Translations under genes and position numbers: made by a program
The notes under the pieces: model-generated
What the model was told of the DNA's origin: nothing
Seen by the model: the letters and a program-made list of their open reading frames with translations, nothing else
Database searches by the model: none
Origin: Trypanosoma brucei
Taxonomy: Eukaryota
DNA length: 64,000 nucleotides
Direction: 5' to 3'
Assembly: GCA_000002445.1 (NCBI GenBank)
Contig: CH464491.1
Coordinates: 3,840,001 to 3,904,000 of the forward strand
Shown: one piece after another, positions 20,238 to 56,192 of the stretch
Numbering within the stretch: position 1 is the first letter of the stretch
Layout of the letters: each line of letters opens with the position of its first letter

Positions 20238-20242
<5 letters not shown>

Positions 20243-24343: not shown

Positions 24344-24845
24344 TGCAAATAGTGGAGCTAACTTAAATAGTGATGTTGTGCTACACAGTGGAAACTGGTG
24401 GAATCGCTTATAATAAATATACTTATTTTGAAAATGTAAAAATAATAATAATAATAAAACAACAACAGTCAAAACAGTGAAGTAAGTTATACCAACAATA
24501 CCGAAAAGAAGTGGTGAGGGACAGATTCTGTGAATTTACACTAACCGCAGCACAACTCACAATAACCTCCATCTACCCCACTAGTAGTATATGCGGCTGT
24601 CGTTACCGAATAACCAGAAGAAAGGGTAATACCAGTTAACGGGAATAAACAAATAGGAAAGTGAACCCACAGTTTTACACCCGAATAAAGAAATCAATAT
24701 GGACTTCTCGATGTATAGGGCACTACGTACAGATTAAATACAAACTGATCTTCAAGTTGAAACAAAAACGAAAACGATGAGTTACATGTATCGAAACGTA
24801 AGTAGTTCGGAGGTGTTGCGAACTACTTCGCAGAATATCTCATCC

Positions 24846-32192: not shown

Positions 32193-34652
32193 TCACTTGT
32201 GGTGTTTCCACGTCGCACAGTACAGTGCAAGCTCCAAGACGGATGGGTTAGACGCCGAAAGGGCTTTGCCATTATTAACCATGCGTTGTAATTCTTTCCA
32301 CTTCTTCCACTTTGTCTCAGCCTCCGCAACGTTGGGAAGTGACGAGGAGAAATGCAGTGCCCCGGGATGAACAGTTACCATACGGGGGGAGACATTTATC
32401 ATGCGCAATTGAGAGAACTTCTTCACGCGACTCGCAGCAACATAAATGATATGGTTACAGGGAAAGAACCCCTTGCAGTCTAGCAGTATAGAATGATCCA
32501 GAGTGAGTCCTTGCGTCTTGTGTACAGTAAATGCATAGGCAGGTACGAGGGGCATTGTGACGACACGTGCAGTACAAAACACTCGGTCTTGCAGATCCGG
32601 TAGCGGAAGGGATAACCAAGGTATAGCCACATCCTTTCCGTCAGCGTCCATCCGCACAATGGGAACAATAACGTCGTCATAGTTGACAACGTCAAGCGCC
32701 TGTTCCTTCCCATTGCCGCCGTATGAATTTTCTGATGACCCGGCCGAACTGTCACTACTAACCACTGGTCTCCGTGAAAGAGAGGCGTACACTTTCCGCG
32801 AAAGTTGGGTTCTGATACCTTTGGGAAATAAATGCCGAGATTTATTTACAGGTTGAAAGCCGATGACGGTACCGGTAGAGCCGTTAACGTACTCATTGCT
32901 TAAGTTTCGCAGTAGTATTACCCTACAACCGACCTTTAGTCTCTTGCTTTGGAGTACATTATCACTCTCTATCACCTTCGAGTATGCCTGCTTCAGGGAG
33001 GCGCGCAGAAAAGTACTGAGGGAGTTCTTATGTTTCACTTCAAACAGCACCCTACCAAAAAACCTTCGAGCGGATTTACTTTCGGGCGTGGTACCGTAAT
33101 AACTACGCTCCCATTCTGCTTTCATTTTAGCCACTGGATAGAGACAATCGTACTGCTTACTCACACAAAAGTGTACGTAGACTTTCAGATAGGGTTGTCT
33201 TGAACTATAAGGAGGTGCTACTACAGAAGTGGCTATACCGGAGATGCCACACCGCGTGCATATCTGTCCCACAAACTTCTTCACTTCCCGTTGCCATCTT
33301 CGGGAGGACCTCATCTTCTCTAGGAAGTGCAACACCACCACATCATTACAACCGTCGACGTTGTTTGCTCCTCGACTGTTCGGCGATGCATGACCTTTGG
33401 GGCCGGAAAGACCGGCTGACTCAACTATACTCCGAAATAGATGTTCCTCCCCGTCAAGTTCAAGCATTTTACTTTCATTAAACGCCGCCACAGATCGGCG
33501 GGTGGGATAGAGTTGGATGGCGTTAGGATCTTCCGGATTAACCAACGCAGACCGCATCATGCGACGAGTGAGAACACCTTGACGGAGCTTGTTGAGGTCA
33601 TTCAGAAATGCGGTGTCACCATGCCGCTTAACTTCGCAAAGTTGAAGGTGAAGCAAACAGGTTAAGAAGAGAGGGCTCTCGAAGATTAGACCACTGCTTG
33701 TCCGCTGACGCTCACCTACACAAATATTTTTCACCGCCGACATAATATGTCCCTGGTCTGTGACAGCAGCTGTAGAGCTTACGTCGCTTCTATTTTGTCC
33801 TGCTGTATTCTCGGTGGTTTCGTCCCCTCGGTAACCAATTTTGTTGCCTGCATCACCACCGCCATCTTGAGAAGTACAATTCTCAGTGCTATGCATTAGT
33901 TGCATGAAGTCTCCGCATAATATAACTTGAATGCCACCAAATGGAAGGTGAGGTATCCTTCCAGGTGCCCCGCGGGCGGCAATATCCAGCCCCTCCAAAT
34001 GTCTAGCGTGTAAAAGCGATACTTCATCCACAACAATAACGTCCACTTTGGCAAGAAGACTCTTGCTGTAGCGAAGGATCGAGACGGCACATGATTCGTT
34101 TGTCTCACTGTTACCAACGGAGGTAACTCGTACTCCAAATGTGCTGTGAAAAGTGCTTCCCCCAATGTTGAGTGCAGCTATTCCGGTAGATGCCGTTACG
34201 ACAACGTCAAGGTCCTTCGCCCTTAACGCTGTCACAATACTCTGGATCATATATGACTTACCGACACCAGCACCACCACCAATGAAAAGCGGAGCTCCAT
34301 CAAGGACAAGTGTGAGAGCCCTCCGCTTCTCCTCATTGAGACCGAGTGACGAAAAAGCTGACTCATCACCGCTTGATTTTTCCTTTTCCTGAAGCCCCAG
34401 GTCGTTGTGGCCAGCGCTAGACGCCTGCCGACAGGTCTTCGTGTCTCTTTCCTTGATTTCGTTGACTTCTGCAGCCCCACAACAGGAAGTACTCTCCGGT
34501 GCAGGGGAAAGCTGCCCCCCTTTTTCACCTTCTGCAGCAACGGTCCAAGCAGAAACACCTTTCGCAAGGCGGGATTGCCGTCCTTCTCGCCCCGGTGCAA
34601 AAAGCAGTCTTCCATACGTTAGCAATAGAGTCCTGGTGGAGTTGAGGAGCAT
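32193..34652 (-). CDS. PIF1-family 5'-3' DNA helicase (819 aa) with lineage-specific insertions
   Basis: Walker A (FIGGGAGVGKSY), ASTGIAALNIGGSTFHS, the DEVSLL motif and the PIF1 signature region are present. A C-terminal FTVHKTQGLTLD motif is also present. ATG verified at 34652. Confidence 0.85.
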   Translation of the reverse strand: MLLNSTRTLLLTYGRLLFAPGREGRQSRLAKGVSAWTVAAEGEKGGQLSPAPESTSCCGAAEVNEIKERDTKTCRQASSAGHNDLGLQEKEKSSGDESAFSSLGLNEEKRRALTLVLDGAPLFIGGGAGVGKSYMIQSIVTALRAKDLDVVVTASTGIAALNIGGSTFHSTFGVRVTSVGNSETNESCAVSILRYSKSLLAKVDVIVVDEVSLLHARHLEGLDIAARGAPGRIPHLPFGGIQVILCGDFMQLMHSTENCTSQDGGGDAGNKIGYRGDETTENTAGQNRSDVSSTAAVTDQGHIMSAVKNICVGERQRTSSGLIFESPLFLTCLLHLQLCEVKRHGDTAFLNDLNKLRQGVLTRRMMRSALVNPEDPNAIQLYPTRRSVAAFNESKMLELDGEEHLFRSIVESAGLSGPKGHASPNSRGANNVDGCNDVVVLHFLEKMRSSRRWQREVKKFVGQICTRCGISGIATSVVAPPYSSRQPYLKVYVHFCVSKQYDCLYPVAKMKAEWERSYYGTTPESKSARRFFGRVLFEVKHKNSLSTFLRASLKQAYSKVIESDNVLQSKRLKVGCRVILLRNLSNEYVNGSTGTVIGFQPVNKSRHLFPKGIRTQLSRKVYASLSRRPVVSSDSSAGSSENSYGGNGKEQALDVVNYDDVIVPIVRMDADGKDVAIPWLSLPLPDLQDRVFCTARVVTMPLVPAYAFTVHKTQGLTLDHSILLDCKGFFPCNHIIYVAASRVKKFSQLRMINVSPRMVTVHPGALHFSSSLPNVAEAETKWKKWKELQRMVNNGKALSASNPSVLELALYCATWKHHK

Positions 34653-35109: not shown

Positions 35110-36531
35110 CTATCGCTGACGCAGATTGCACTGCAGTTCCGAAGTTCTATGCATCTGACCAGTTCTTCGTGTAGGCCCCGACTCGGCCCGTTGCTGCATG
35201 GGTGAACCCCGGATTCTGGGTTCCACCGGGTTCCGACTACACTGTGCTCTAAGTTTAGTGCGCAGGTCCAAGAGTTGGCGGTGTTCTTCGGGTGATAAAT
35301 ACACAGAATGACATCGGGCCTCTGGTAGTAGGTACTCCCCTGTATCACCACGAGAAACAATGACGCCGCGGAGTCTGAGAAGGGCAAAGAGCTCTGCTCC
35401 CGTTAAAATGTCCAGGACGGTTCTCTGCGGAGCCGTTTTGCGCGGCAAAACAGGGCGGACGGGGTCGCCACCGACTTGTGATGGGGTCCTTCCTCGAGGT
35501 CCTGAGTTTCCCCTAATCGTGTTTTTACACGAAACACTCTTTTCGGTAACGCGAGGAGAACCTGGAGAGTGCGGTGCGCGGGCGAAAATGGGGCGCATGA
35601 AGTTTGTGCCTTGTACTCGGTGTTGGCATGACCCACGCGAAACCAGAGGCCGAGAAACTTCAGTAACAACGGAACTGCTGCGGACTGTAGGGCGTTTATC
35701 TTCCCCAGCGCACAGATACTCTGTGTCTAACGCACACGAACCACAACCCTTGTCCACATACTGTTTGTATTGTTTCTCAGAACTTTCCCTGACTGGCCCT
35801 TGCGTTTTGTTACTAGGTGTTTCTGCTGTGGCAGTCCATGGCTCATGCAGCGGGCTGTTCTCTGCAGCACTGTTTGAGATATTTCGTTGCTCCACTGGTA
35901 GGTTGTTGACGGATCCCACAGTATCTGAAGGGTGATTACTGCTTGATACCTTTTTGCGCAGCTTCTCACGGAGACGGATCTCCATTGCCTGGAGGGGGTC
36001 AAAAGAGCCACCTACCAGATGAGTTAAGGGTTGAGACGACGACACGTGCACCTGCCTTTCCGCTTGTAAAACTCCCGCTTGTGGGGGACCCCCATTAATG
36101 TTATTATTTTTTGTGTACGGTGCTCCAAGTTGATACGTTGTTTTGATGCTCTCTTGCTCCTTTATGCCCGAGTCACACATTTCTACCTCCTCCACGAGTG
36201 CTGTGGTGCTCCCTTTCCTTCGTGAAGTGTTAAGTGTCTTTATGTTACCATCACCCGCTTCTTCACGGAGCACTGATAGTTTCTCTTCCTTCGTAAAGAT
36301 GCGCTCCGCACTTGATGAAATCGAAGTCTGGCGTTTACGGGGGAGTTCCTCATCAGCTGCGTGTGAAACGATGCTATTCCTTTCATCCTGTTGATAAACT
36401 TCAGGTGATCTGCCGGGCACAAACCCAGCATCAAATTCTTCATCACGCTGAAGGCACTGGCTTATGTTCATTAAACGATCACGCATCTCGTTAATTTTGC
36501 AGTCGACATCGGCCAAAGATTCTGAGGGCAT
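35110..36531 (-). CDS. hypothetical Ser-rich protein (473 aa) with possible C-terminal SAP-like motif
   Basis: ATG verified at 36531. Mostly low complexity. LDILTGAELFALLRLRGVIVSRGDTGEYLL fits the SAP L-x2-L-x-V-x-EL-x2-L-x2-RGL pattern loosely. Confidence 0.45.
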   Translation of the reverse strand: MPSESLADVDCKINEMRDRLMNISQCLQRDEEFDAGFVPGRSPEVYQQDERNSIVSHAADEELPRKRQTSISSSAERIFTKEEKLSVLREEAGDGNIKTLNTSRRKGSTTALVEEVEMCDSGIKEQESIKTTYQLGAPYTKNNNINGGPPQAGVLQAERQVHVSSSQPLTHLVGGSFDPLQAMEIRLREKLRKKVSSSNHPSDTVGSVNNLPVEQRNISNSAAENSPLHEPWTATAETPSNKTQGPVRESSEKQYKQYVDKGCGSCALDTEYLCAGEDKRPTVRSSSVVTEVSRPLVSRGSCQHRVQGTNFMRPIFARAPHSPGSPRVTEKSVSCKNTIRGNSGPRGRTPSQVGGDPVRPVLPRKTAPQRTVLDILTGAELFALLRLRGVIVSRGDTGEYLLPEARCHSVYLSPEEHRQLLDLRTKLRAQCSRNPVEPRIRGSPMQQRAESGPTRRTGQMHRTSELQCNLRQR

Positions 36532-38169: not shown

Positions 38170-40308
38170 TTACTCTTTACGCAGCCTTTTATAGTCTCGC
38201 TCCTCATGGCCAACATCAACATGTGTGCCATTCACCATTTGTTGCGCCCCATGTAGTGCTGATCTCCTCTCACTACTCACAGAAAAGAGGGAAACGCGGC
38301 GACTGCCACGAAGGCCTCCCTCAACAACAAAGCCAGAAGAAAGGAAATCAGTCCAGGCATCAGTGACAATGTCGCTCACTGCTGCGGGCGACAGTCGCTG
38401 AAGTGAAAGGTAGTGCCGGTGCAACTCGCAAACAAAATCATCCGCAGGTGCGTGCTCAGCACCATGTACGCGTAGAGTACGACGGAGTGAATTCAAAACA
38501 GAAGTCATGGACCCTACCCAGCTCGTCAGCAGAGTTCCATCCGCATTTTTGTCCAGTTGACTCATCTCTTTGAAACCAAGGTCAACCATGGGGAGGAGCA
38601 GCTGCCTGACGTCTACTGCGCAGGATATTCCGTGACACAAAAGAAGCAGCCTCGACTCCACAACGGAGCTCCGAACAACAATTAACATCAACGGGATGCT
38701 CAAACAAAAACGCGTTCCACTTGCACATAAATCAGAACACGCACGTCGAATACCACGAAGAAATGCGCCAATGGCCGTGTGCTTCAACCACTCAGCAACC
38801 GTGTTCCCTGCAACGCATTTAAGTTTGTCCTTCACGCTCTCCTCGCACCGCTTCGACACCACGGCAGCCTTGTACACGTCTAGGCACCGCAGGACAGAAA
38901 GGCACACAAACTGCACAGCCTCCACAGCCGAATTGTAATCCACATCGGTCTCTCCACTACAGTAAGCAGACATCACCCATTTGAGCAACTCTGTGTGTCT
39001 CTGCAACAGAAACTCCCAAAGATCCGTATCCAGAAACAATGGGATGTCGCCCCTGTGACGTTCCCCTGTGTAAGCTTCAAACCATCTCAGTAACAATGAG
39101 AGGAGAAACTCAAGACGCTCCAGGTTAGCAGAAGGTGGCGACGACGGATTACACTCCACGATGGATTGCACAGCGGTTGCAAATGCGGTCACCGATCTAA
39201 CGGCTTTACAACTAATGCAACGCACGAGTTCTTCGGGAAACTTAAGCGCTGTTGCATCAGTGCCACACGACCTCTCTTCCTCTTCAACCCCACATTCATA
39301 TTCCTCCTCAACTCCTTTTTGTTGCAATTTGCTCTGCGATTGATGTTTAACGAACTTGTCATGAGCCAGAATGCACCACAGCCCCTTAAGAGTATCCCCC
39401 GCCCTCTTCAGTAACACTCGCTGCTTCGACTCGTTGACCTCAAACGACTTGTAATCTTCAAGTAATTCACCACTAACAAGTTCCAAACTAGGGACATCAA
39501 AGTCACGCTTGAAGCTACGCCTGATAAGTACCTCTGCAGCTTCTTCATGCCGTTCCAGAAGCAAAGTGTCAGTAAGCCACAAACGCTCCGCCTTACCCAC
39601 AGAAGCATAGAAACCGAACAGATGGGCTGATTCGCAAGCAAGCCTCTGAAAACTATAAAGCTCTCGGAAGTACCGTTTTCGCAAAAGAATGGCACCCTCC
39701 CCCATATCATCCGCACTCTCCTCTGCTGCTATACGAACTTCTTCCAAGTCCGCGCCATTACCATCCATTCCGTCTCCTGCAACAGGCGAGACGGAGATAA
39801 TTTCATCTTCGTGAGGGAATCGGGAGACAAGGAGTTTCAGACGCAGCGAGCAACTATCCACAGTACCCCAGAAAGCAACAACAAATTGCTCACGCTGCTG
39901 GGAAAGAAATGCGCCACACAGAACTTCCAATTCACAACATCCTGTGTGAAGGGTGGTACTTGAACCATTACTACTGTTTCCGCCATCAGTGCCGTTGTTG
40001 TTTGTGTGATCCATAAACTCACAAAGCCCTTCTTGCCATTTTCTCCAATGCAATGGTCGAAGGACAATCAGTTGTGATGCCTTCATGTAGACGTTATGGT
40101 AATGCCTAACCGCCTCGCACACCGCTGAAGTGGGTAGTGACGCCAAGGGTGGTAAAAGGAGGGGGTCACACCGCGCAGCCTCCAGAGTTCGGAGCGTATT
40201 ATCCCACTCTTTGATGGAAAAACATACCGCGTCTCCAAGCAACGCCGAGCCCACACTGCAGAATTTGTTCACCTGTTGCTTTGAACGAACACTACGCAGA
40301 GCAGCCAT
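38170..40308 (-). CDS. conserved hypothetical protein (712 aa), predicted helical
   Basis: ATG verified at 40308. No domain recognised. Confidence 0.5.
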   Translation of the reverse strand: MAALRSVRSKQQVNKFCSVGSALLGDAVCFSIKEWDNTLRTLEAARCDPLLLPPLASLPTSAVCEAVRHYHNVYMKASQLIVLRPLHWRKWQEGLCEFMDHTNNNGTDGGNSSNGSSTTLHTGCCELEVLCGAFLSQQREQFVVAFWGTVDSCSLRLKLLVSRFPHEDEIISVSPVAGDGMDGNGADLEEVRIAAEESADDMGEGAILLRKRYFRELYSFQRLACESAHLFGFYASVGKAERLWLTDTLLLERHEEAAEVLIRRSFKRDFDVPSLELVSGELLEDYKSFEVNESKQRVLLKRAGDTLKGLWCILAHDKFVKHQSQSKLQQKGVEEEYECGVEEEERSCGTDATALKFPEELVRCISCKAVRSVTAFATAVQSIVECNPSSPPSANLERLEFLLSLLLRWFEAYTGERHRGDIPLFLDTDLWEFLLQRHTELLKWVMSAYCSGETDVDYNSAVEAVQFVCLSVLRCLDVYKAAVVSKRCEESVKDKLKCVAGNTVAEWLKHTAIGAFLRGIRRACSDLCASGTRFCLSIPLMLIVVRSSVVESRLLLLCHGISCAVDVRQLLLPMVDLGFKEMSQLDKNADGTLLTSWVGSMTSVLNSLRRTLRVHGAEHAPADDFVCELHRHYLSLQRLSPAAVSDIVTDAWTDFLSSGFVVEGGLRGSRRVSLFSVSSERRSALHGAQQMVNGTHVDVGHEERDYKRLRKE

Positions 40309-40500
40309 TATTCGTACTTCAGTGCCCTGCTAAAACAGAAGGCCAGTATGTGTGCGAAGACCAGGGTGGTATCCTGCCGCCACTCGAGGAATATTACGTT
40401 CCAACGTCGCTGTTCGTGTGCCGGGAGGTAACGCACATGCTTCCGTAGTAATAATAGGTAGACAAATAGAAATGGCGACCGTGAAAAAAAAAAAATAATA

Positions 40501-40540
40501 ACACACACACACACACACACAGACAGAGAGGGAGAGAGAG
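40501..40540. repeat. (AC)11 followed by (AG)-rich purine run
   Basis: Direct read. Confidence 0.9.
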
Positions 40541-40962
40541 CATACAATTCGAGCAAGGGCAGTGGCGCCACCACTTCAAGATAGTAAAAATGGAAGACAA
40601 ATTAGAGACTGCTCACGTAGGTTAACACCCACGGGCAGGTACAGCATTATTTTTTTAATCTACTACTTTTTTAAAAAGGTAGAGTTGTGAACTTGAGCTG
40701 CGCCAATATGAGAGCATGCGATGAGCACATACGCGCAACGCACGTCTCGTTATGCGCATTGTGGATTCACTGCTTCTGTACAGCAAAATCACACTTCAGT
40801 ACGCCCTTCAAATTTTCCCATGCATTTTCGAGATATTGTTCAACTGTTCAGCTCTGCAGAACTACTCCCTTCAAATGAAACGTCCTCCTTCTTCTTTTAT
40901 ATAACAAAAGGTTTTCAAACCAATTGTGCAAGTCTATAAATATCAGCAGTGCCCGGTGGCCG

Positions 40963-40980
40963 ATATATATATATATATAT
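40963..40980. repeat. (AT)9 microsatellite
   Basis: Direct read. Confidence 0.9.
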
Positions 40981-41055
40981 AACTGTGATGACAAAAACAA
41001 AGTGCCCGGGTTAGTGGGAGGTAATGGCCCACACACACATCTAGACTCATCACCA

Positions 41056-41727
41056 TTACATCTTCCTTACACATGCCATTTTGGCAAAGAAATCGGATAA
41101 CTTCATTTGACTTTTTGGAGGTGTTGGAATGCCCCCTTGAGCACGTAAGGGAGATTTGCCAGTTGGCGTTGTATTTCCCACTCCACTAATCCCACTTTTT
41201 ATGGCATCCCCTTGTGGAAAGAGTTCGCAAACTGTGGGAACCGCAGAAGTGGAGTCATTGTTGTTTTCCATAATGTCTGTAGAGCTGGGATGGTCAGGGG
41301 AACCGGAAAATGGGCTCAGAAGTGCAGACGAGCCATGCTGTGATGACGGCGACACATCACCCTTTACCACCTTCGGCACGGTAGGTGGATTATTTCCCCT
41401 GAAACATGTGGAAGGTGTTTGTTCCTGTGATGTGGTGGCTGTTGTGGTAGTGGTGGTGGCACCACTGGGTGATGGGTGGTCTAACCGGTCGACGAGGTTC
41501 ACCTTCACGACCCCAGCGGCAAATGCAAATGCAGCCATTTTCTCCACACCATCTCCACCACGGCGTGCAATATTCAACTCCGCCGCTGAACTATTACCCT
41601 CTGCGATGACATTTGTTCTTTCGACTGGCACCCCATTATGCAACATCGAATCTGCCATAACAGGTTCAGTGCGCATAACCTTCGTTGGTGGATTGTATTC
41701 ATCGTCGTCATCCAAAAGCAAACTCAT
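41056..41727 (-). CDS. small disordered S/T/P-rich protein with C-terminal PIP box (223 aa)
   Basis: ATG at 41727. Mostly low complexity with a TTTTTATT run. The C-terminal QMKLSDFF fits the canonical PCNA-interacting peptide Q-x-x-[LIM]-x-x-[FY]-[FY]. Confidence 0.5.
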   Translation of the reverse strand: MSLLLDDDDEYNPPTKVMRTEPVMADSMLHNGVPVERTNVIAEGNSSAAELNIARRGGDGVEKMAAFAFAAGVVKVNLVDRLDHPSPSGATTTTTTATTSQEQTPSTCFRGNNPPTVPKVVKGDVSPSSQHGSSALLSPFSGSPDHPSSTDIMENNNDSTSAVPTVCELFPQGDAIKSGISGVGNTTPTGKSPLRAQGGIPTPPKSQMKLSDFFAKMACVRKM

Positions 41728-42573
41728 CTTCGGCCCTCTCAGCTTTCACACGTCCTTTTGTGTTTCCGTAAAAGTTTTCAGCCCTTGAACAAACGCAAAT
41801 TCTTTAAAATATAAAAATACATGTACATAAAGTGGTAAAAAAATAACAATGAAAATAGAGGGGAACATGGAAATGTTACAATGAGCATTGAAACACAGTA
41901 CAAGTAGTCACCAGAGTGTAGTGTATCGGAGGAGGTGCGATATATTCAAAAAAAATGTACACATATCTTTTTAAAAGGTACAATAAAGGTACAAATACGG
42001 GGGCACCGCCGAATGGGCACATAGTCCCGCAGTAGGAACCAAATCATGTCCTTCAAGGGAAGGGTTAGCTGCAGGGGTATAGCAAGAAAGAAAACGGGAA
42101 AAAATACAAGGCAACATAATGAAAACAACACAAACAAAATCAACCGCTCCTTTAAATAGAGATACAAAAATGCCTTTCCTTTCCCCCTTCCCTCACTACA
42201 TATTTCCTCTCATTTCCTCCCTGAACCCCAACAAAACCTCGTTTGGTAGTTGCATGCGCTCCCTGTGACGAAATAAAATCAGTGACAATACAACATTATG
42301 ATACATCACTTGACAGGTACAAAAAAATAATGGACAGACGAAGACGACTGTAACGGATCGGTTATCTCCAAATAAAAGTACAACGTATACGCATATATAT
42401 ATAATATTTTACTTAGCCACGCCGTATAACTGCGTACATAGATGGACGAGAGACAAATGTTCATGTGCCCACCTCTGTCTGCATATATTCACGCTTATGC
42501 AAAACTAAGAGCACACGTGACGATGTTTCCCTGAAAATACAAAAAAAAATCAAGAAAGACAGTCACTTCCTAC

Positions 42574-43326
42574 CTAGAAATGCAGAGGTAAACTTTCGGT
42601 AGGAGAGTCAGCTGGCGTCAATTCAAGTGTTCTTTCAAACCCCTTAAATACCGGTGGAGTAGCAAAATGGACATCACCCGCGGAGCGGCGCGTCGCTGAC
42701 CGCAGAGCGCTCGACCCATCTTCAGAAAACATGGTTGTTTTACCATCAGTTGCACAGCTTGGGCTCTGTAGCATCATATCCGAATAATCAGGTGTACCAC
42801 TTTGTGGGGTCCGAGCTCTAAGATAAGTGGCGTAGAGACAATCCCTTTCGGCTGGGTCGATTGGCATCACTACTCGTGGAGATACTCCACCGCTTTGGGG
42901 ACTGCAATACCGCGACTGCTGACGCTGTTGAGGTTTTCGTTGTTGCCCCGAAGTTGTGTTGCTAAATGCATTTAAACGCCCGCTTGCTGCTTTCTCTGAC
43001 TTCTTGGATTTCAAGTTTGCTCCGGTATCTTTGTCATCTGGCTGAATGAGTTGCAGTCCCTTCGGAAGTCGGGGGTCGACGCGAACCTTCAGTTGACTGC
43101 GGGTGGTGTTGTTAAACTTCGCTACAGCCTGCATTACTAGTTTAGCGTAGCACCGGTTGAACTGCTCACCATTCTGCCGATTAAGCGCTAATTCAACCAT
43201 ATCCGGTGCTATGAAGAACCGCTTCTGCAGAATAAAATTGAGTTTGTTTCGGTGACCGAACAGTTCCCCCGGGGTACGCGGCAACTTGCGAAGCCCTTCG
43301 AATAAGTCATCTTTCTTCCACTGCAT
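42574..43326 (-). CDS. hypothetical protein (250 aa), globular N-terminal domain and basic/S-rich tail
   Basis: The track ORF starts at a GTG at 43422 inside a K-rich purine run. The first ATG is 43326 (MQWKKDDLFEGL). Confidence 0.45.
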   Translation of the reverse strand: MQWKKDDLFEGLRKLPRTPGELFGHRNKLNFILQKRFFIAPDMVELALNRQNGEQFNRCYAKLVMQAVAKFNNTTRSQLKVRVDPRLPKGLQLIQPDDKDTGANLKSKKSEKAASGRLNAFSNTTSGQQRKPQQRQQSRYCSPQSGGVSPRVVMPIDPAERDCLYATYLRARTPQSGTPDYSDMMLQSPSCATDGKTTMFSEDGSSALRSATRRSAGDVHFATPPVFKGFERTLELTPADSPTESLPLHF

Positions 43327-44551
43327 TCCCTTTTCTTTTTTCTTTCTACTGTGCGATACCTTTTTCCTGGGTCTTTTCTTCTTCTTTCCTTTTGTTTTCC
43401 TTTTCTTTTTGATTTTCTCCACAATCCTTCGCTTACTTTCTTATTTTCCCACACGAGAGCTTTAGTTTCCGCTCCCCCTGTCAGTTTAACCCTTCTGGAT
43501 AAATTTATAAGTATCAGTTCTTTGTTTGCTTTTCCCAACGACTTTACAAGTTTCCTACACCACTAGTAAAGAAAAAAAGAAAATGCCGCCACGGTTTTAC
43601 AACTGAAGAAAGTTGAACGACACTCAGCACCTTTTGAGTTGTCCTTATTCTTTTTTCCGTACAGCGCTTCAGTGGAGATTTCTTTTCAGTTGTCTTTGTT
43701 CCCCTTGCGAGCACTTCCTAAAAACCCTGTTAGAAGTTTGTTTGTTTGTTTTGTTATGAATGGCAGGTGTCTTCGTAAATTTATTTTGGGAGCTTTTAGA
43801 AAAGCAGCTTAAAAAGAAAAAAGAACAAATGTTCCTCTTCTTTTTTCCCCCTTAAATTAAGGTCGAGGGAGCAACCAATGCGGAAAAAAGCAACAAAAAG
43901 GAAAATGTAAAGGGAAGTGAAGGCGTTTGATAATTGATTGAGTGAAGGACAGTAAAGTTTTGTGCGGGGGAAATCTCCAAAGGGGGGGGGGAAGAGGACC
44001 CCATGGTCTGATGAGAGAAACAATTAGAGGTTACAAGGGGGAAAAAGCGCATAGCGGCAGCGTTGCAAACATACGTGCACAAATACATTAGAGTATGCAA
44101 CATCAAAATAGTGCTATTTAGTTTGATTGCAGCGCATGGGCATGCACGCGGAAGCGCGACATTAGATGTTCTTCACACTAATTTACAGTGGTAACCGGTT
44201 CCAGCGTGACGGATCGGATGTGCCTGGTAGTTCGTGGACTCCGGTCAACCTGCTCGATGTGTATTTAAAAATCGCTTCGGCACCGGAATACTCCATAAAA
44301 AACGACGACAACAACAAAATAAAAAAGAAAAAAAAGGTCCCTACGGGAATCCCTCCGTTCCACAAACCGCCACACGTCACTGAATCAGAAAAACCCGCTC
44401 GCTACAATTGTGCAGACTGTGGACCTTCAGTTTCGTTGCAATTAACACAAATCTGCTTACCATGTTTTAGTGCTCGTGCATACAAAAAACACTAAATTTA
44501 TTAAGGTTTTCATTTCGTTAGTTGCCGTGTCAGCGGCACTTTAACAAGTAC

Positions 44552-46750
44552 TTAGCGCTCAAACAGGAAGACGCCTCGTCCGTCCCTTAAACTCATTGCA
44601 AATCGATCCCCTCCCTCAGAAATTGATACACAAGTGACTCTATTGGCGATGGGTTCTGGCAAGTGGGTTTGGTGAAACTGACCACACTCACTGTGCGTGG
44701 AACAATAAACCCCCAACCTGCGCGAAAAAGATGCCTGAAGTGTTTCTACCGTCACCCTACCCCCATTTTCCACTTCGCAGAGTAACGCTAACGGATCAGC
44801 ACGATAAAAGGTTAGGATTTCTTCACCACCAGGCCGTCCAGAGTGAAAGGGTTGCCATGCGGCCACAGCACCGTCATAGAGTCCAGTAATGATTGTTCCC
44901 GAAACATGATCTACTGCCGCTGAGAACCGATCAAAAATGGCGTCGCTTTCATAGAGTGAGCGTAAGTACGGTTCTACGTAAGGCATAAGACGGACCATGT
45001 CGCACGGTTCTGAGGTGCGGCGCAGGTCCCACAGCTTGAGGGAAAAGTAATCACGCGTTACGATGTGATCAGTACCTATAAAACCGGCGGCTGAAACACT
45101 ACATAATATTTCGCCGTAGTCTTGTAAGCGAGAGTTCCATCCTGCTCCAGCCCTCCCTCGCACATATGTACTGTAGCGACGTTGTGCGCCAGTCGCTGCC
45201 TCGCGCAAATCGCCGATGCCGAGGAACCCCGAGTTCCGACCAACGAAAAATAGGGAGTTGTGGGTTGGGTGAAACCCGGCCGTCGTGACCAACTCCACTA
45301 CGTCGTCCATGTTTCCAGAAGGTGGACGCATGTCTGCGATGCGCGATCCGTTAGAGCCGTCTGCGCACTCAAAGTTCCACCAGAACACTTCAAGATCATC
45401 CACGCTCAGAAAAGATTGATCATCAGCACAAACACTAAGACCATGTATTCGGTTGATGTGATTTCCCGAATAAACGCGTGCGGGAAGTATCAGAGACGGC
45501 AGTGTTGCGCAAGGAAAGTATTTTGTCTTGGAAAGTTCTGGTCCGACAATGGACTCCATCTCCGGAAAGGCATGGAACATTGAAAGTCCTTCACGCTGCA
45601 CCCGAAACAGCTTAATAACTCGGTCGTTTGAAGTCAAATAGCTCACCGTGCTTGGGGACAGATGGGGTCTAAGAAACTGAAAGCAGTTCACAGACTGCGA
45701 TATTGGAACCGAAGTTAAGCAATCCAACTCCTCGACATATGCCTGATGCGTGTGTTTTCGCACCGACTGTTGCTGGAATCCGAATGTGTCAAGCTGCTGA
45801 CGGGGAGAAACCGAAGGAATGGAAGTCGAAATACTCGAAACATCCATGTCGGTGCGACACTGGCTTGCTGTGGTGACAACAGATTCACTCTTCCTTTGGC
45901 TGGAAAGTGATGGTCGTGAGAGTTTTGCATCTCCTACAGGTATTTCACAGTAGTTCACTCGTCCATTGGCATCCCCGACTCCGATCGCAATAAGTGAGGA
46001 ACCGGTTGCAAAATTTGGTAGCACTGACAATGCCATGCTGTTCACTCTCGAGGGGATTGTATTCGCCACCTTTCTAAGAACGCTGCGCATGCCTCCTGCA
46101 TCTCCACTGTTGGTCACCATGAAATCTCCTATGGCTTCCAACTCGGCGCTATCAGTCGCTTCGGGTTTATGTGAACAAGGACCCCATCTGGGCATAACGT
46201 CATGTGTACTAAACGGATGGCAAAGCTTCTGAAATAGTTTGAATCCATTCCCACCACCACGACTCAAGTAAGAGGAGTTGTTATCCGAATCAGCAACATC
46301 TTTTGACCACTCGGGGGATTCAACATTTCTACCACTACTTCCGCTGGCAGTAGCAGTAACAGCAGCAGTGCCCTTGGTAGGCAACTTTCCTTCTCGATTA
46401 GAACCACCATCTCTGCGCGCGCCTCGCTTTCCCCTATTATTGTGATGACGCGGACGGTCCTTTCTAAGCTTTGTTTCCACACCTTTTGGTTCGTTTAGCC
46501 CAGTTACTTCGTTCTCCTGCACTTGCGACTTGTATAGGGAGCAACTCTCAAGGCATTTCCCCCCTCGTTTACGTTGCAGTTGCTCGTCTCGCACTCGGGA
46601 TTGGCGGTCGGACTTCGGCAGGTGCGAGCGGTGAGGCACTTCACTTTCCGCCCGCGAGCCACGGCAGGATAATGTCTCTGCACTACTTTCCATAGAACAG
46701 CATGGCGAGGGGGAAGGTGAGGGCGAGTGGTTGCCGTCCTGATCAGACAT
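44552..46750 (-). CDS. protein phosphatase 2A regulatory subunit B (B55/PR55, WD40) with ~250-aa S/R-rich N-terminal extension
   Basis: TRDYFSLKLWDL, VEPYLRSLYESDAIFDRFSAAV and GFHPTHNSLFFVG align with the human B55 segments [38 protein letters not shown] and EFHPNSCNTFVYS. The first ATG is 46750. The track starts at a GTG two codons upstream. Confidence 0.8.
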   Translation of the reverse strand: MSDQDGNHSPSPSPSPCCSMESSAETLSCRGSRAESEVPHRSHLPKSDRQSRVRDEQLQRKRGGKCLESCSLYKSQVQENEVTGLNEPKGVETKLRKDRPRHHNNRGKRGARRDGGSNREGKLPTKGTAAVTATASGSSGRNVESPEWSKDVADSDNNSSYLSRGGGNGFKLFQKLCHPFSTHDVMPRWGPCSHKPEATDSAELEAIGDFMVTNSGDAGGMRSVLRKVANTIPSRVNSMALSVLPNFATGSSLIAIGVGDANGRVNYCEIPVGDAKLSRPSLSSQRKSESVVTTASQCRTDMDVSSISTSIPSVSPRQQLDTFGFQQQSVRKHTHQAYVEELDCLTSVPISQSVNCFQFLRPHLSPSTVSYLTSNDRVIKLFRVQREGLSMFHAFPEMESIVGPELSKTKYFPCATLPSLILPARVYSGNHINRIHGLSVCADDQSFLSVDDLEVFWWNFECADGSNGSRIADMRPPSGNMDDVVELVTTAGFHPTHNSLFFVGRNSGFLGIGDLREAATGAQRRYSTYVRGRAGAGWNSRLQDYGEILCSVSAAGFIGTDHIVTRDYFSLKLWDLRRTSEPCDMVRLMPYVEPYLRSLYESDAIFDRFSAAVDHVSGTIITGLYDGAVAAWQPFHSGRPGGEEILTFYRADPLALLCEVENGGRVTVETLQASFSRRLGVYCSTHSECGQFHQTHLPEPIANRVTCVSISEGGDRFAMSLRDGRGVFLFER

Positions 46751-47422
46751 GATCACGCTGGGAATTCGATGAAATAAGCTTCGCGACCAAAAAACAAGTT
46801 CCCCCCTTTTGGAACGCGATGACGTTCAACCAGCGCGGAGTCCTTGTAAAAGGAGACAAAACTGGAAAGGGGGAAGAAAGGAATAATCAACGATTAAACT
46901 AAAGATAAACAAATGTTGCTTTCTAGGCAAGTTCAAAAGAAAGAAAACGTTGAAGAAAGTGTGAATGACAGGGGAACAACACAAAAAAAAAAGAAAGCGT
47001 TCTGAGGAGGGAGCGAATGTATGTGACGGTTGTGGTCCTGATTTACTTTTTTTAAGCATTAGTTACAGCTAAGGGGATGCGTGCAAATCGTGGTCTTCGT
47101 ACGACCTACGCGCGCAGCTGGTTGGAAAAGAGAGAAGAGAAAACGGTATGAAAAACGTTGTAGAACCCACAGTCACAAACACATATTCACATGTGTATAT
47201 ACTACAACCTGGAACCGAGAAGTACAAGGGGGATGAGATTTGCAAAAAATAAATAAATAGGCCTTCTCGTGAGAAACAGCAAAGATACGTCTATGGATGT
47301 AACTTTATATATAAAAAAGGAGACAAAATATTTCGATGATTCTATACCGTTATCTATGGATGTGCACAAATTTGTGTATGTGTCAGTATGTGTATTTTTA
47401 TATACAAAGATGGGTTTGTCAA

Positions 47423-49360
47423 TTAGTTTGCGCACTGTTGGCGCACAAGTGCAAAGCTCGACGCCATTCTTCTAATATATGCCGGCGTTCGTGATATCTT
47501 TGGACGAAAGGTGGCTTGTTCAGCCATTTCTCGCTCCTTCTCACGTTCTTTTTGCTCCCTCATTTCCGCCAATCTCTCTTTCTGTCGTTTTAGATTCTCC
47601 GTGTATGCTACGAGGTGTTTGCTACTCAAGTAAGACTCCACGTTCCGGTTCCGCTCATCGTTGAGTGTTGGTTTAAATGGGTGCTTCATCTCCGCTGAGC
47701 GCGCCTTCTCCTGTGCAGCCTTTATTGAATTCCTTCGACGCACGCTATCAAGAAACAACACCTCAACACCAGAAGGTTTTGCACCACTAGAACCAGGAGC
47801 TGTTTCTGGTTTAAATGTGCACGGGTCAACATAAGGGGAACGGTGCTTTTTCACTGCCGCCGCGAGCGTAGGAGCGCTTTTCACGTTCCCAACTTCAGAT
47901 TCATTTCTCGCAAGTAGCCTCTTCGCGATCCGCACGCTGGTGTTAGTGATCTGCGGTTTGAACGATGGACGCTGAGACTCCTCAATTTGTCGCACAGTGC
48001 GTGTGCGGTTTGCTAAATGCTTGTCCTGGCGTAGCAAAAAACTATCGAAGCTCGCGCCCCTACTACTACCGCTGTCGTGATGACCTCCATTATACGAAGT
48101 TGTGCGGTTGAATGTGTTTTCATGCCTTACAGTCATAAGTTTACGCGCTAAAGGGGATTGATATTTTGTGTCGACGAATGCAGCTTTTTGTTCGTCTTTT
48201 GAGCCCAGTATATTAAACATAAACAATTCGAACGAATCCGCGCCTCCCTTTGTCGACGTCGCACCTCCATACATTTCACGCAACTGATCTTTTTCAGCTA
48301 GCAGAAGTTCCCGTACGCTACTGTTGTTGCCACCTTCCGAGCGTTTTCCCGCGAAGTTACGTTGGTACAACCGCTGAAAAACGCTGTCTCTGCTTTGCGA
48401 GCTTTTCTGAAACATGGAAACTGATGCGCGGGACAGTTGTGGGCGAAAGGTACATTCCTGTAGTTCTTTTGCCTCCCATTTCTCTTTAGTGCGCTGCCGG
48501 CGCTCCATGAGTGAATCCCCTCGGTGCTGTAGTGACGATGAACCTCCCCCGTGTTCCTCATCCGAGTCAAACACGTCAGAAACTTCTATGGTCGTTTCGT
48601 CTCGCATCAAATATTCGTTCCAACGAGTGGCTGCACGTGTAAGTGCCCCATTTTTACCAGATAAAGAGGCAGCCTCCGGTAGATTTTTTTCCCTTTTTGG
48701 CGTCATCACAAACGCTATCTGACTGCCATCTTCATGTGACCGAGAAATGCGTTCCATCTCCTGATTCTGATCTCGCCCCTCTTCCTCTTCCATTTCACCA
48801 TAAACATTCCGGAATTGTCGAAGGAATGAAGGATCCGTTCGCCCTATGCGCTCCAACTCTATGTTGAGTTGCTCAACATCCATGTGAAGAGAATCCGACC
48901 ACTTTGTCTCATTCACTCGTGCACTCCCTTTGTGAAGAGAAGTTTCGTCCAATGACGGCTCCTCCCTTTTCCTTACCGGAGAACCCTTTCCCAGCTTCCG
49001 CACTTGCACCTGACGCGATTGCTCGGTAGGATAGATGTAATGCCCGGCGCTCGTGCCATGAAATGTGTCAAACCTGCTGCCACCTTGGGAACATATCTCA
49101 CTGGCAGTTTCTGTAATTCCTTGATTGCCATAACTCCACGTGTGTTCGTTGAATTCGTCGAAACCCGATTGCTCACTCCAACTGCTGTCACTGCGCGTAG
49201 GTTCCTTGTACTGCCCCTCTGCCTTAATCCGAAGGTATGTATCCAGTAAACTGTCATCTTCGTAGTCACTCATGGTTCCCTCTGATCGTGCAGTCAGCTC
49301 ACGCTGCCTCTCAAGTGCGGCAACCGCCTCCATGATCAAGTTTTCGCGGTCCGCAAACAT
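47423..49360 (-). CDS. protein with TPX2-like [ST]F[KR]P repeats (645 aa), candidate microtubule-associated protein
   Basis: Five dispersed motifs TFRPQ, SFKPQ, TFKPE, PFKPT and TFRPK lie in K/E/R-rich coiled-coil context, resembling TPX2 PFKPQIP/KFKALP repeats. The first ATG is 49360. The track start is a TTG inside an (AC)n run. Confidence 0.45.
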   Translation of the reverse strand: MFADRENLIMEAVAALERQRELTARSEGTMSDYEDDSLLDTYLRIKAEGQYKEPTRSDSSWSEQSGFDEFNEHTWSYGNQGITETASEICSQGGSRFDTFHGTSAGHYIYPTEQSRQVQVRKLGKGSPVRKREEPSLDETSLHKGSARVNETKWSDSLHMDVEQLNIELERIGRTDPSFLRQFRNVYGEMEEEEGRDQNQEMERISRSHEDGSQIAFVMTPKREKNLPEAASLSGKNGALTRAATRWNEYLMRDETTIEVSDVFDSDEEHGGGSSSLQHRGDSLMERRQRTKEKWEAKELQECTFRPQLSRASVSMFQKSSQSRDSVFQRLYQRNFAGKRSEGGNNSSVRELLLAEKDQLREMYGGATSTKGGADSFELFMFNILGSKDEQKAAFVDTKYQSPLARKLMTVRHENTFNRTTSYNGGHHDSGSSRGASFDSFLLRQDKHLANRTRTVRQIEESQRPSFKPQITNTSVRIAKRLLARNESEVGNVKSAPTLAAAVKKHRSPYVDPCTFKPETAPGSSGAKPSGVEVLFLDSVRRRNSIKAAQEKARSAEMKHPFKPTLNDERNRNVESYLSSKHLVAYTENLKRQKERLAEMREQKEREKEREMAEQATFRPKISRTPAYIRRMASSFALVRQQCAN

Positions 49361-49683
49361 CACTAGGAGCGATCTCTTTTCCTTAGAGGGGAAAACACAC
49401 ACACACAAAAAAAAAGTAAACTGGAAGGGGAGGATAAAATGCGGGTGTAACGAAGCTCTTTTCCCCCTTTTAAAGAGACATAACAGACAACTTACAGTTG
49501 CAATGAGGAAACGATGCTTAACTGCTCAACGTCCCAAGCGGACATCAATGCATGAAGGCAGCACAAAATATGCAATACTACAGACCTTATTATAGTAATC
49601 CTTTCAGCTCCTCCAGGAGGTAAAAGGTAACTGAAACATCCAACAAAGTTTAGTATTGCTGTTATTTTTTTTTTAAGTTTATC

Positions 49684-55660: not shown

Positions 55661-56192
55661 TATCTGTAGAAAATGATTGACAGTGTGAACCGAAATGTTT
55701 TTTATTTTACTTCCCACTTGTCGCTACAGCGACCTTAAACGCCTGTTTTCTCGAAGTTCACTCTTTTCACACGCTCAGTAAAGGGGGACAACTCCCTGCC
55801 ACTTGCCAGCGGTGAAACCTAAACCTGCTGTAGAGATATTAGCGGCACTTTAACACAGTTGGGAATGTCTTAAAAGAATGGGTTAGGGTTACAAATTAAG
55901 GAGGAGAAAGGAAGTCAAAGTGGAACAATATGTGCGAAAAAAACTGAGAACCAGAAGTGTTGCAAAATGCACATGAATGCTTGTGACTTTCCGCACGGAA
56001 TATTTTTTTTGGCAAAGGTGAACAGTAAACGTGACTTTCTCTTTCTTTTTTTAGTGTTTTGATGTTGAGGTTTTACCGGAATTAGGAAATAACACTCCCC
56101 CCTCCTGTTTTTCTTTTAGATGTTATCTTTCCCTCATAACCAAGAAAACTAACAACAACAAAGAAAGTAAAATTTTTTTGTTACTTTCGCCC

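What the first reader, a model, noticed from the sequence alone, without database searches (positions are those of the whole stretch)
41056..41727. Disordered mini-protein ending in a canonical PIP box (QMKLSDFF): candidate PCNA-associated factor
The 223-aa ORF is almost entirely low-complexity S/T/P/G sequence. The last 20 residues contain Q-M-K-L-S-D-F-F, matching Q-x-x-[LIM]-x-x-[FY]-[FY] exactly, followed by basic residues (AKMACVRKM). Small intrinsically disordered proteins with a C-terminal PIP box form a recognisable class (PAF15, p21, Spd1-like). They regulate PCNA-dependent replication or are CRL4-Cdt2 degrons. The S-D at PIP positions 5-6 partly resembles the T-D of PIP degrons. Such genes are hard to find by homology, so a kinetoplastid member would be a useful handle on replication-coupled regulation. 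The gene sits in the same polycistron as other DNA-replication genes (Pol-alpha B, PIF1, ATR), although linkage means little in trypanosomes.
Basis: partly seen in the sequence, partly recalled or inferred. Interest (0 to 1): 0.6.

Follow-up and report, generated by a model that had tools for sequence, protein, structure and literature searches.

The report
Conserved S-phase PCNA-docking protein of trypanosomes
This small, mostly unstructured Trypanosoma brucei protein (Tb927.11.14830) ends in a textbook PCNA-binding motif that is unchanged across trypanosomes and Leishmania, and published data show it is nuclear and peaks in S phase, so it is a credible uncharacterised partner of the DNA replication clamp.

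Summary
Window 41056..41727 (-) encodes a 223-aa protein ending in QMKLSDFF + AKMACVRKM. The window is T. brucei chromosome 11, and the gene is Tb927.11.14830 (Tb11.01.6460, UniProt Q381V2), annotated 'hypothetical protein, conserved'.

- All 22 syntenic orthologues examined (Trypanosoma, Leishmania, Leptomonas, Lotmaria, Novymonas) keep one strict PIP box 2-10 residues from the C-terminus, with Q, L, S, D, F, F invariant.
- The antisense ORF is not conserved, and published phosphopeptides match the sense ORF.

Three further conserved islands sit in otherwise divergent, AlphaFold-disordered sequence.

Published T. brucei data give a late-G1 mRNA peak, about 5-fold protein accumulation peaking in S phase, S-G2/M phosphorylation at T187 and T189, and nucleoplasm annotation.

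There is no Pfam, PDB or profile similarity to PAF15 or POLD3 beyond the PIP box.

The PIP-degron idea is not supported. The motif has S-D rather than T-D and no basic residue at +4, and the protein rises in S phase rather than being destroyed.

Best reading: a trypanosomatid-specific, S-phase, PCNA-tethered adaptor or regulator. Direct PCNA binding remains untested. It is a new member of a known kind and a good experimental lead.

The parts
41056..41727 (-). Coding sequence of Tb927.11.14830 / Tb11.01.6460 / Q381V2 (223 aa plus stop)
   Evidence: ORF listed. It is 100% identical to T. brucei TREU927 XP_829541.1 / Q381V2. The gene ID was fixed from neighbours and a published table: CPC2 peptides, ATR at the left end, and a table pairing Tb927.11.14830 with Q381V2 and matching peptide sequence.
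41665..41727 (-). N-terminal conserved island, residues 1-21: M-[SGA]-LLL-D-D-[DE]-[DE], then P-x-K-x-x-R-x-E in Trypanosoma
   Evidence: L3, L4, L5, D6 and D7 are at least 90% conserved. 17 of 22 members match ^M.LLL[DE]D. The island is absent from the divergent orthologue P0027. Its partner is unknown.
41491..41571 (-). Central conserved island, residues 53-79: [RK]-G-G-[DN]-G-x-x-K-M-x-x-[FL]-x-F, predicted as a small strand-turn-helix-strand element
   Evidence: G57, G58, G60, K63 and M64 are invariant and F69 is at least 90% conserved. 21 of 22 members match the motif. AlphaFold2 predicts E51-54, H60-68, E76-79 in T. brucei with pLDDT 65-69. It predicts the same element in the L. donovani orthologue with pLDDT 68-82.
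41368..41397 (-). Third conserved island, residues 111-120: P-x-T-V-x-K (Trypanosoma) / T-Q-P-K-[IV]-V (Leishmaniinae)
   Evidence: The invariant columns shift with the alignment: P114 in A2, P114 and K119 in A1, T116 and K119 in A3. The majority fraction is 0.57 against about 0.3 in the flanks.
41161..41169 (-). Phosphorylated residues T187 (a T-P site) and T189
   Evidence: Published cell-cycle phosphoproteome, read. pT187 log2 values are 0, -0.80, 2.11, 2.43, 3.14, -0.08. pT189 values are 0, 0.35, 2.32, 2.93, 2.92, 2.87 and the site belongs to cluster Phos-02, which is enriched for CDK motifs. The sequence window printed there equals the ORF translation.
41086..41109 (-). Canonical PIP box Q207-M-K-L-S-D-F-F214
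   Evidence: Located. Q, L, S, D, F, F are invariant in 18-22 orthologues. It lies in a predicted short helix with the highest pLDDT of the protein, 74-82, and 69-77 in Leishmania.
41059..41085 (-). Conserved C-terminal tail after the PIP box: x-[KRQ]-M-[AS]-C-x-[KR]
   Evidence: M217, A218 and C219 are at least 90% conserved. The tail is 7-10 residues long in 21 of 22 members. A basic residue also sits 2-3 positions before the Q in nearly all members.
41156..41788 (+). Antisense ORF of 210 aa: not a gene
   Evidence: A long antisense open frame exists only in T. brucei (215 codons). The three orthologous loci reach at most 147, 132 and 98 codons. All ORFs of 200 aa or more in the window, apart from this antisense one, lie on the minus strand.

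Best explanation
Tb927.11.14830 encodes a trypanosomatid-specific, intrinsically disordered nuclear protein. It is made at the G1/S transition and accumulates through S phase.

Its invariant C-terminal PIP box (QMKLSDFF), with conserved basic and 'KMAC' flanks, most likely folds into the usual short helix. That helix would plug into the hydrophobic pocket of the PCNA sliding clamp and tether the protein to replication forks.

The rest of the chain would act as a flexible linker carrying three further conserved islands: the acidic-hydrophobic N-terminus, a small strand-turn-helix-strand element, and P-x-TV-x-K. These would bind one or more other partners. The protein would therefore work as a PCNA-bound adaptor or regulator, functionally comparable to PAF15 but unrelated in sequence.

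Phosphorylation at T-P sites rises from S phase to G2/M, and the protein falls back by the next early G1.

Shown: the ORF, its conservation, synteny, predicted disorder, mRNA and protein timing, phosphosites, and the nuclear annotation.

Inferred: PCNA binding, partner binding by the other islands, and a regulatory role for phosphorylation.
For: Motif and conservation
- Canonical PIP box at residues 207-214.
- Exactly one strict PIP box, 2-10 residues from the C-terminus, in 22 of 22 orthologues from Trypanosoma, Leishmania, Leptomonas, Lotmaria and Novymonas, while the rest of the sequence is only 24-34% identical.
- Gene order is conserved in T. grayi, T. theileri and L. donovani.

Structure prediction
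- The protein is mostly disordered, with the C-terminal helix as its most confident part, in both T. brucei and L. donovani.

Published expression data
- The mRNA peaks in late G1, a class rich in DNA replication genes.
- Protein log2 values relative to early G1 are 0, 0.65, 2.15, 2.32, 1.64, 1.20 across EG1, LG1, ES, LS, EG2M, LG2M.
- GO component annotation is nucleoplasm / nuclear lumen.
- The PCNA phosphosite pS211 has a similar profile, peaking one time point earlier (early S): 0, 1.22, 2.32, 2.15, 1.71, 1.30.

Precedent
- Trypanosomatid PCNA is reported to use PIP-box contacts with Cdc45 and MCM4 in L. donovani (titles and abstracts).
Against: No experiment shows binding to PCNA.

[quoted passage not shown] The gene ID appears in no main text in the library.

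PIP-like motifs can also bind other proteins.

The GO annotation also lists cytoplasm and ciliary plasm.

The protein was not detected in a second cell-cycle proteome.

The partners of the other three conserved islands are entirely unknown.

The Prot-01 co-regulation cluster is functionally mixed; it includes a transporter and a mitoribosomal protein.
Confidence: 0.6

Rival explanations
1. It is the trypanosomatid equivalent of the third subunit of DNA polymerase delta (Pol32 / POLD3 / Cdc27). On this reading the N-terminal islands bind the Pol31/POLD2 subunit and the extreme C-terminal PIP box ties the polymerase to PCNA.
For: - The layout matches: conserved N-terminal part, long disordered middle, and a PIP box within a few residues of the C-terminus followed by basic residues.
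- The protein is nuclear with G1/S-S timing.
- A 2017 review states that the composition of trypanosomatid Pol delta remains to be characterised.
- A literature search surfaced no paper describing a trypanosomatid Pol32/POLD3.
Against: - None of 18 members hits the Pfam CDC27/Pol32 family even at E <= 10.
- AlphaFold2 predicts no winged-helix domain.
- Residues 22-52, between the two N-terminal islands, are hypervariable and rich in insertions and deletions. That does not fit a compact ~100-140 residue Pol31-binding domain.
- The protein is only 223-275 aa, against 350-466 aa in yeast and human (lengths from my own knowledge).
Confidence: 0.15
2. The C-terminal motif is a PIP degron. On this reading the protein is a Cdt1 / p21 / Spd1-type substrate, ubiquitylated by a CRL4-Cdt2-like ligase on chromatin-bound PCNA and destroyed in S phase.
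For: - S-D at PIP positions 5-6 resembles the T-D of degrons, and there are basic residues downstream.
- T. brucei has a CUL4-like cullin with DDB1 and two DCAF proteins.
Against: - 0 of 22 members match Q..[LIVM]TD[FY][FY]...[KR].
- Position +4 after FF is Ala/Ser in every member.
- The protein rises about 5-fold into S phase and peaks in late S, the opposite of a CRL4-Cdt2 substrate.
- No Cdt2 is named among the T. brucei DCAFs in the paper read.
Confidence: 0.04
3. The Q-x-x-L-x-x-F-F motif binds something other than PCNA, either another PIP-like or FF-motif reader or a lineage-specific partner. The protein would then act in a different S-phase process.
For: - PIP-like motifs are known to be read by other proteins (established knowledge of Rev1- and Mlh1-binding FF motifs).
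- The conserved 'KMAC' tail is not a feature of known PIP boxes.
- The GO annotation also includes cytoplasm.
- The co-regulated cluster is functionally mixed.
Against: - The motif meets the strict PCNA consensus at every defining position, including the Q, in all 22 members. Rev1- and Mlh1-type motifs do not need the Q or the L.
- Basic residues flank it on both sides, as in strong PCNA binders.
- The nuclear S-phase behaviour fits PCNA.
Confidence: 0.12

Closest known systems
PAF15 / PCLAF (KIAA0101), the metazoan PCNA-associated factor
   Same: Both are small intrinsically disordered nuclear proteins with a canonical PIP box. Both accumulate in S/G2 and are low in G1. Neither has an enzymatic domain. 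This is the best functional analogy.
   Different: There is no sequence relationship: hhalign aligns only 14 columns at the PIP box, with probability 1.3%, and there is no Pfam hit. PAF15's PIP box is central, whereas here it is at the C-terminus. No KEN box occurs in any member and no conserved D-box was found. This family has its own three extra conserved islands.
Pol32 / POLD3 / Cdc27, third subunit of DNA polymerase delta
   Same: Both have a long disordered body with a canonical PIP box at the extreme C-terminus followed by basic residues, plus a conserved N-terminal part. A trypanosomatid counterpart has not been described in the literature searched.
   Different: There is no PF09507 match, no predicted winged-helix domain, and the protein is much shorter. 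Only the PIP box aligns with human POLD3.
PIP-degron proteins (Cdt1, p21, Set8, S. pombe Spd1)
   Same: These are also disordered proteins or regions with a PIP box and downstream basic residues. Human Cdt1's motif, as I recall it (Q-R-R-V-T-D-F-F), resembles QMKLSDFF.
   Different: Here the motif has S-D instead of T-D and no basic residue at +4 in any member. Abundance peaks in S phase instead of dropping.
Leishmania donovani Cdc45 and MCM4 PIP boxes
   Same: These are the reported cases of PIP-box-mediated binding to a trypanosomatid PCNA. They show that the mechanism operates in this lineage.
   Different: Those are internal motifs in large, folded, universally conserved replication proteins. 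This is a lineage-specific protein whose most conserved feature is the PIP box itself.

Membership tests
PIP-box PCNA-binding proteins (functional class) | Strict motif Q-x-x-[LIM]-x-x-[FY]-[FY] | tested here: met
   QMKLSDFF at residues 207-214. Present once in 22 of 22 orthologues.
PIP-box PCNA-binding proteins (functional class) | Motif lies in an accessible disordered region or terminus and can form a short helix | tested here: met
   AlphaFold2 predicts a disordered chain with helix 210-218 at pLDDT 74-82. The L. donovani orthologue gives the same result.
PIP-box PCNA-binding proteins (functional class) | Nuclear and present when PCNA is on DNA (S phase) | tested here: met
   Published data read give nucleoplasm / nuclear lumen annotation and a protein peak in early to late S phase, about 5-fold over early G1.
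PIP-box PCNA-binding proteins (functional class) | Direct, motif-dependent binding to PCNA | not testable with these tools
   No interaction data were found.
PAF15 / PCLAF family | Sequence homology to PCLAF | tested here: not met
   No Pfam family for any of 18 members.
PAF15 / PCLAF family | APC/C degrons (KEN box, D-box) | tested here: not met
   0 of 22 members have KEN. R..L..[LIVMK] occurs in only 5 of 22 members.
Pol32 / POLD3 / Cdc27 (Pfam PF09507) | Match to the family profile | tested here: not met
   hmmscan of 18 members at E <= 10 lists no CDC27 hit. hhalign against human POLD3 gives probability 0.4%.
Pol32 / POLD3 / Cdc27 (Pfam PF09507) | Folded N-terminal winged-helix domain that binds Pol31 / POLD2 | tested here: not met
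   Only a ~30-residue strand-helix-strand element is predicted. Residues 22-52 are hypervariable with large insertions and deletions. A shallow alignment limits the strength of this negative result.
Pol32 / POLD3 / Cdc27 (Pfam PF09507) | PIP box at the extreme C-terminus with a basic tail | tested here: met
   7-10 residues follow FF in 21 of 22 members. The tail ends in K/R in most and contains K/R in all 21.
Pol32 / POLD3 / Cdc27 (Pfam PF09507) | Stable association with the Pol delta catalytic and second subunits | not testable with these tools
   No Pol delta purification from trypanosomatids was found.
CRL4-Cdt2 PIP-degron substrates | T-D at PIP positions 5-6 and a basic residue at +4 after the box | tested here: not met
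   S-D is invariant, +4 is Ala/Ser in 22 of 22 members, and 0 of 22 match the degron pattern.
CRL4-Cdt2 PIP-degron substrates | Destruction during S phase | tested here: not met
   Protein log2 is 2.15 in early S and 2.32 in late S relative to early G1.
RNase H2 subunit B | Being the RNase H2B gene of T. brucei | tested here: not met
   T. brucei RH2B is Tb427.1.4220 on chromosome 1 and co-purifies with RH2A and RH2C. This gene is on chromosome 11.
CIP/KIP cyclin-dependent kinase inhibitors (p21-like) | N-terminal cyclin/CDK-inhibitory domain (Pfam CDI) | tested here: not met
   No Pfam hit for any member. No conserved R-x-L cyclin-docking motif: only 8 of 22 members match.

The most novel reading that the evidence does not exclude
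The family could be the lineage-specific stand-in for a replication factor that appears to be 'missing' from trypanosomatids. One option is the third subunit of Pol delta. Another is a new PCNA regulator whose N-terminal acidic motif and strand-helix-strand module recruit a kinetoplastid-only partner to the clamp. Either would make it a parasite-specific control point of S phase.
Probability: 0.2. Interest if true: 0.7.

Novelty: new member of a known kind. Interest (0 to 1): 0.5.

Why it matters
Trypanosomatid nuclear DNA replication has a divergent origin recognition complex and apparently lacks several standard regulators. Few PCNA partners have been studied in these parasites.

This is a protein restricted to these parasites and conserved from T. 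brucei to Leishmania. It is nuclear, accumulates about 5-fold in S phase, and its most conserved feature is a perfect PCNA-docking motif. That makes it a ready experimental handle on clamp-centred regulation.

Peptide binding, a three-residue mutant and proximity labelling would quickly show what it brings to the fork.

Because it has no detectable relative in the host, its interface with PCNA or with its unknown partners could also be parasite-specific.

Tried and rejected
- Pfam scans of the protein and of 18 orthologues gave nothing.
- A profile search of all PDB sequences gave nothing significant. The best hit was E = 0.24, to retroviral integrase over the GG-G-x-x-M region, which I judge to be chance.
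- Foldseek of the L. donovani model against the PDB had a best E of 1.4, a generic strand-helix-strand match that is not meaningful.
- Profile searches of 5.8 billion and 1.84 billion proteins found only trypanosomatid orthologues, all 'hypothetical'.
- hhalign against PAF15 and POLD3 aligned only the PIP box.
- RNase H2B identity was excluded.
- The cycling-element core CATAGAA is absent from this gene's flanks, and the window count is not above chance.
- A 2009 study found the transcript is not a PUF9 target, unlike its neighbour CPC2.
- Pattern searches found no PIP degron, KEN box or APIM in any member, and no conserved D-box or R-x-L motif.
- I compared the N-terminal LLLDD stretch by eye with the SUMO-interaction consensus as I recall it. 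It has only three hydrophobic residues and does not fit. No tool was used for this.
- An RPA70N-binding role for the acidic N-terminus is unlikely, because trypanosomatid RPA1 lacks that domain.
- Supplement look-ups were uninformative for the TrypTag paper and the genome-scale RNAi cell-cycle screen, which had no occurrences. The iPOND preprint has no supplement held.
- The gene ID occurs in no main text in the library.

Full report
**1. What is in the sequence**

Window 41056..41727 on the minus strand is an ATG-initiated ORF of 223 codons. It ends ...PPKSQMKLSDFFAKMACVRKM. The PIP-box match QMKLSDFF is residues 207-214, window 41086..41109.

Every ORF of at least 200 aa in the window lies on the minus strand, except the antisense ORF overlapping this gene. 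That fits one polycistronic unit.

S+T+P+G make up 38% of the protein, and the first ~80 residues have ordinary composition. 'Almost entirely low complexity' is therefore too strong. AlphaFold2 nevertheless predicts a mostly disordered chain. With an 18-sequence alignment the mean pLDDT is 53, and 119 of 223 residues score below 50. The only secondary-structure elements are E51-54, H60-68 and E76-79, plus a C-terminal helix at 210-218. That helix is the most confident part, at pLDDT 74-82.

**2. Identity of the locus**

The protein is 100% identical to T. brucei TREU927 XP_829541.1 / EAN80429.1 / UniProt Q381V2, 'hypothetical protein, conserved', on a 5.26-Mb chromosome.

The gene ID was worked out from neighbours:
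- The upstream ORF (42574..43329 from its Met32) contains the peptides KDDLFEGLRK and NKLNFILQK. A published cross-linking table assigns these to CPC2 residues 5 and 28. CPC2 is Tb927.11.14840 / Tb11.01.6470.
- The left end of the window (1..8476) is a PIKK with an ATR-type kinase domain. T. brucei ATR is Tb927.11.14680.
- IDs therefore rise to the right, and the gene is Tb927.11.14830 / Tb11.01.6460.

A published table prints Tb927.11.14830 next to Q381V2, 23.288 kDa, with a sequence window identical to this ORF. The count of intervening ORFs also fits: the PSP1-domain ORF at 23225..24472 is Tb927.11.14750.

PIF1 (32193..34652) and a Pol alpha/epsilon subunit B domain (53714..55717) are real.

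**3. Conservation (first refutation test)**

A full HMMER scan of 1.84 billion representative proteins found six orthologue clusters, in T. congolense, T. melophagium, T. conorhini, T. grayi, T. cruzi and an unnamed assembly. Profile searches added T. rangeli, T. theileri, seven Leishmania species, Leptomonas, Lotmaria, Novymonas and further unnamed assemblies. Nothing outside trypanosomatids was found, and every member is 'hypothetical'.

Overall identity to the T. brucei protein is only 24-34%. Four islands nevertheless stand out:
- The N-terminus, M-[SGA]-LLL-D-D-[DE]-[DE].
- [RK]-G-G-[DN]-G-x-x-K-M-x-x-[FL]-x-F.
- P-x-T-V-x-K in Trypanosoma, or T-Q-P-K-[IV]-V in Leishmaniinae.
- The C-terminus, [KR]-x-Q-M-K-L-S-D-F-F-x-K-M-A-C-x-[KR].

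Q207, L210, S211, D212, F213 and F214 are invariant. All 22 members carry exactly one strict PIP box, 2-10 residues from the C-terminus. The majority-residue fraction is 0.80 over residues 204-221, against 0.27-0.33 in the linkers.

Gene order is conserved. In T. grayi and T. theileri it runs NAD synthase, 661-aa gene, 734-aa gene, CPC2, this gene, 712-aa gene, 335-aa gene, 473-aa gene, PIF1. In L. donovani the five central genes are collinear.

One divergent orthologue lacks the N-terminal island but keeps the other three.

The three T. b. gambiense substitutions fall at Y11, S47 and S159, none of them an invariant column.

**4. Which strand is expressed (second refutation test)**

The antisense frame is open for 215 codons only in T. 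brucei. In the L. donovani, T. grayi and T. theileri loci the longest antisense open stretches are 147, 132 and 98 codons, while the sense frame is open throughout. Published peptides and phosphopeptides match the sense protein. The antisense ORF is a by-product of composition.

**5.

mRNA:
- In the cell-cycle transcriptome the values for Tb11.01.6460 are -0.16, 0.71, -0.06 and -0.49 for early G1, late G1, S and G2/M.
- It is listed as 'Late G1'. The authors describe that class as containing a large number of DNA replication genes.
- It is not a PUF9 target, unlike its neighbour CPC2.

Protein:
- One proteome did not detect it.
- The SILAC time course did, with 3 peptides and 17% coverage, and classed it as cell-cycle regulated.
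- Its log2 values relative to early G1 are 0, 0.65, 2.15, 2.32, 1.64 and 1.20 for EG1, LG1, ES, LS, EG2M and LG2M.
- That is about 5-fold, with peak time 3.92, in late S. The average change for regulated proteins in that study is 2-fold.

Phosphorylation and localisation:
- pT187 (a T-P site) and pT189 rise from early S. pT187 falls back by late G2/M, while pT189 stays high through G2/M. pT189 belongs to the cluster enriched for CDK motifs.
- The GO component annotation in the table is nucleoplasm, nuclear lumen, cytoplasm and ciliary plasm.
- The PCNA phosphosite pS211 has a similar profile, though it peaks one time point earlier, in early S: 0, 1.22, 2.32, 2.15, 1.71, 1.30.

**6. What it is not**

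- No Pfam family matches any of 18 members, even at E <= 10.
- No PDB sequence relative was found, and Foldseek gave no meaningful match.
- It is not RNase H2B, which is Tb427.1.4220.
- It is not a canonical PIP degron. S-D replaces T-D, and position +4 after FF is Ala/Ser in every member. The protein accumulates in S phase rather than being destroyed. T. brucei has a CUL4-like ligase with DDB1 and two DCAFs, but no Cdt2 is named in the paper read.
- No KEN box or APIM occurs in any member, and no conserved D-box or R-x-L motif was found.

**7. Most likely mechanism**

The evidence fits a PCNA-tethered adaptor or regulator. The protein is produced at G1/S and is nuclear. Its C-terminal PIP helix would dock in the PCNA pocket, helped by basic residues on both sides and by a conserved K-M-A-C tail that probably lies along the clamp surface. 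About 200 residues of flexible chain would then present three other conserved short modules to unknown partners.

The central module is predicted as the same strand-turn-helix-strand element in T. brucei (pLDDT 65-69) and in L. donovani (pLDDT 68-82). It may be a small binding module that folds on contact.

Phosphorylation in S-G2/M and the fall by early G1 suggest cell-cycle control of its residence or stability. This is closer to PAF15 than to degron proteins.

PCNA binding, partner binding and the role of phosphorylation are inferences. I put the PCNA-binding adaptor reading at 0.6.

**8. Rivals**

- A divergent Pol delta third subunit (0.15) fits the overall layout and the apparent absence of a described trypanosomatid POLD3. 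It fails the profile test and the N-terminal-domain test.
- A non-PCNA reader of the motif (0.12) cannot be excluded without a binding experiment.
- The PIP-degron reading (0.04) is contradicted by the sequence and by the S-phase peak.

**9. Novelty and value**

The gene ID appears in no main text of the searchable literature. The only mention found is as a negative control next to CPC2. The family is unnamed.

It is a new, lineage-specific member of a well-known kind: disordered PIP-box partners of PCNA. It is not a new kind of system.

Interest is moderate. It is unsurprising in principle, but it is a well-supported and easily testable entry point into clamp-centred regulation in parasites whose replication machinery is only partly charted.

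Noticed in passing
window 42574..43329 (-): The gene immediately upstream is CPC2 / PNT2 (Tb927.11.14840). It is a kinetoplastid-specific chromosomal passenger complex subunit and an S-phase PUF9 / EIF4E2 target mRNA. The mechanical ORF list starts it at a GTG (282 aa). Published cross-link peptides place residue 5 at KDDLFEGLRK, so the true start is the ATG at 43329 (251 aa).
   Followed up: yes
window 41156..41788 (+): A 210-aa antisense ORF overlaps almost the whole gene. The long open antisense frame is present only in T. brucei, not in the T. grayi, T. theileri or L. donovani loci, so it is a compositional by-product.
   Followed up: yes
window 18428..19969 (-): A 513-aa ORF (by ID count Tb927.11.14740) carries a YqaJ-like viral recombinase / exonuclease domain (PF09588, E = 1.8e-18). 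This is an unusual domain for a eukaryotic nuclear gene, and it sits in a unit with several DNA-metabolism genes.
   Followed up: no
window 23225..24472 (-) and 19970..23224: The PSP1 C-terminal domain gene (Tb927.11.14750) is itself strongly cell-cycle regulated at the protein level (log2 FCmax 2.58) in the same published table. It holds the only other strict PIP-regex match in the window (QQKISFYY, 23408..23431). It is followed by ~3.2 kb without a long ORF that contains two minus-strand CATAGAA cycling-element cores (22089 and 22838).
   Followed up: partly
L005 3449..3955 (protein P0027, unnamed Logan assembly SRR29272344): A divergent 168-aa orthologue lacks the N-terminal LLLDD island, and none is found in the upstream in-frame sequence. 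It keeps the central motif, PPTVAK and the PIP box, and ends only two residues after FF. The N-terminal island and the KMAC tail are therefore dispensable in at least one lineage.
   Followed up: partly
proteins P0008 / P0016 (T. cruzi), P0020, P0021: Several database entries carry hydrophobic N-terminal extensions of 30-100 residues before the conserved M-x-LLLDD. Other T. cruzi entries start at that Met (234 aa). The extensions look like mis-called start codons.
   Followed up: partly
window 40963..40980 and 41030..41040: A (TA)9 microsatellite and a short (GT)n run lie in the 3' region just after the stop codon. Further downstream (about 40400..40560) there is a (GT/CA)-rich tract, which gives the VCVCVCV-type spurious ORFs.
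   Followed up: no
window 38170..40308 (-), 35110..36531 (-), 44552..46756 (-), 47423..49408 (-): Four sizeable neighbours (712, 473, 734 and 661 aa) have no Pfam domain at E <= 0.01. All four are collinear and conserved in T. grayi and T. theileri. The 712-aa and 734-aa genes are also conserved in L. donovani.
   Followed up: no
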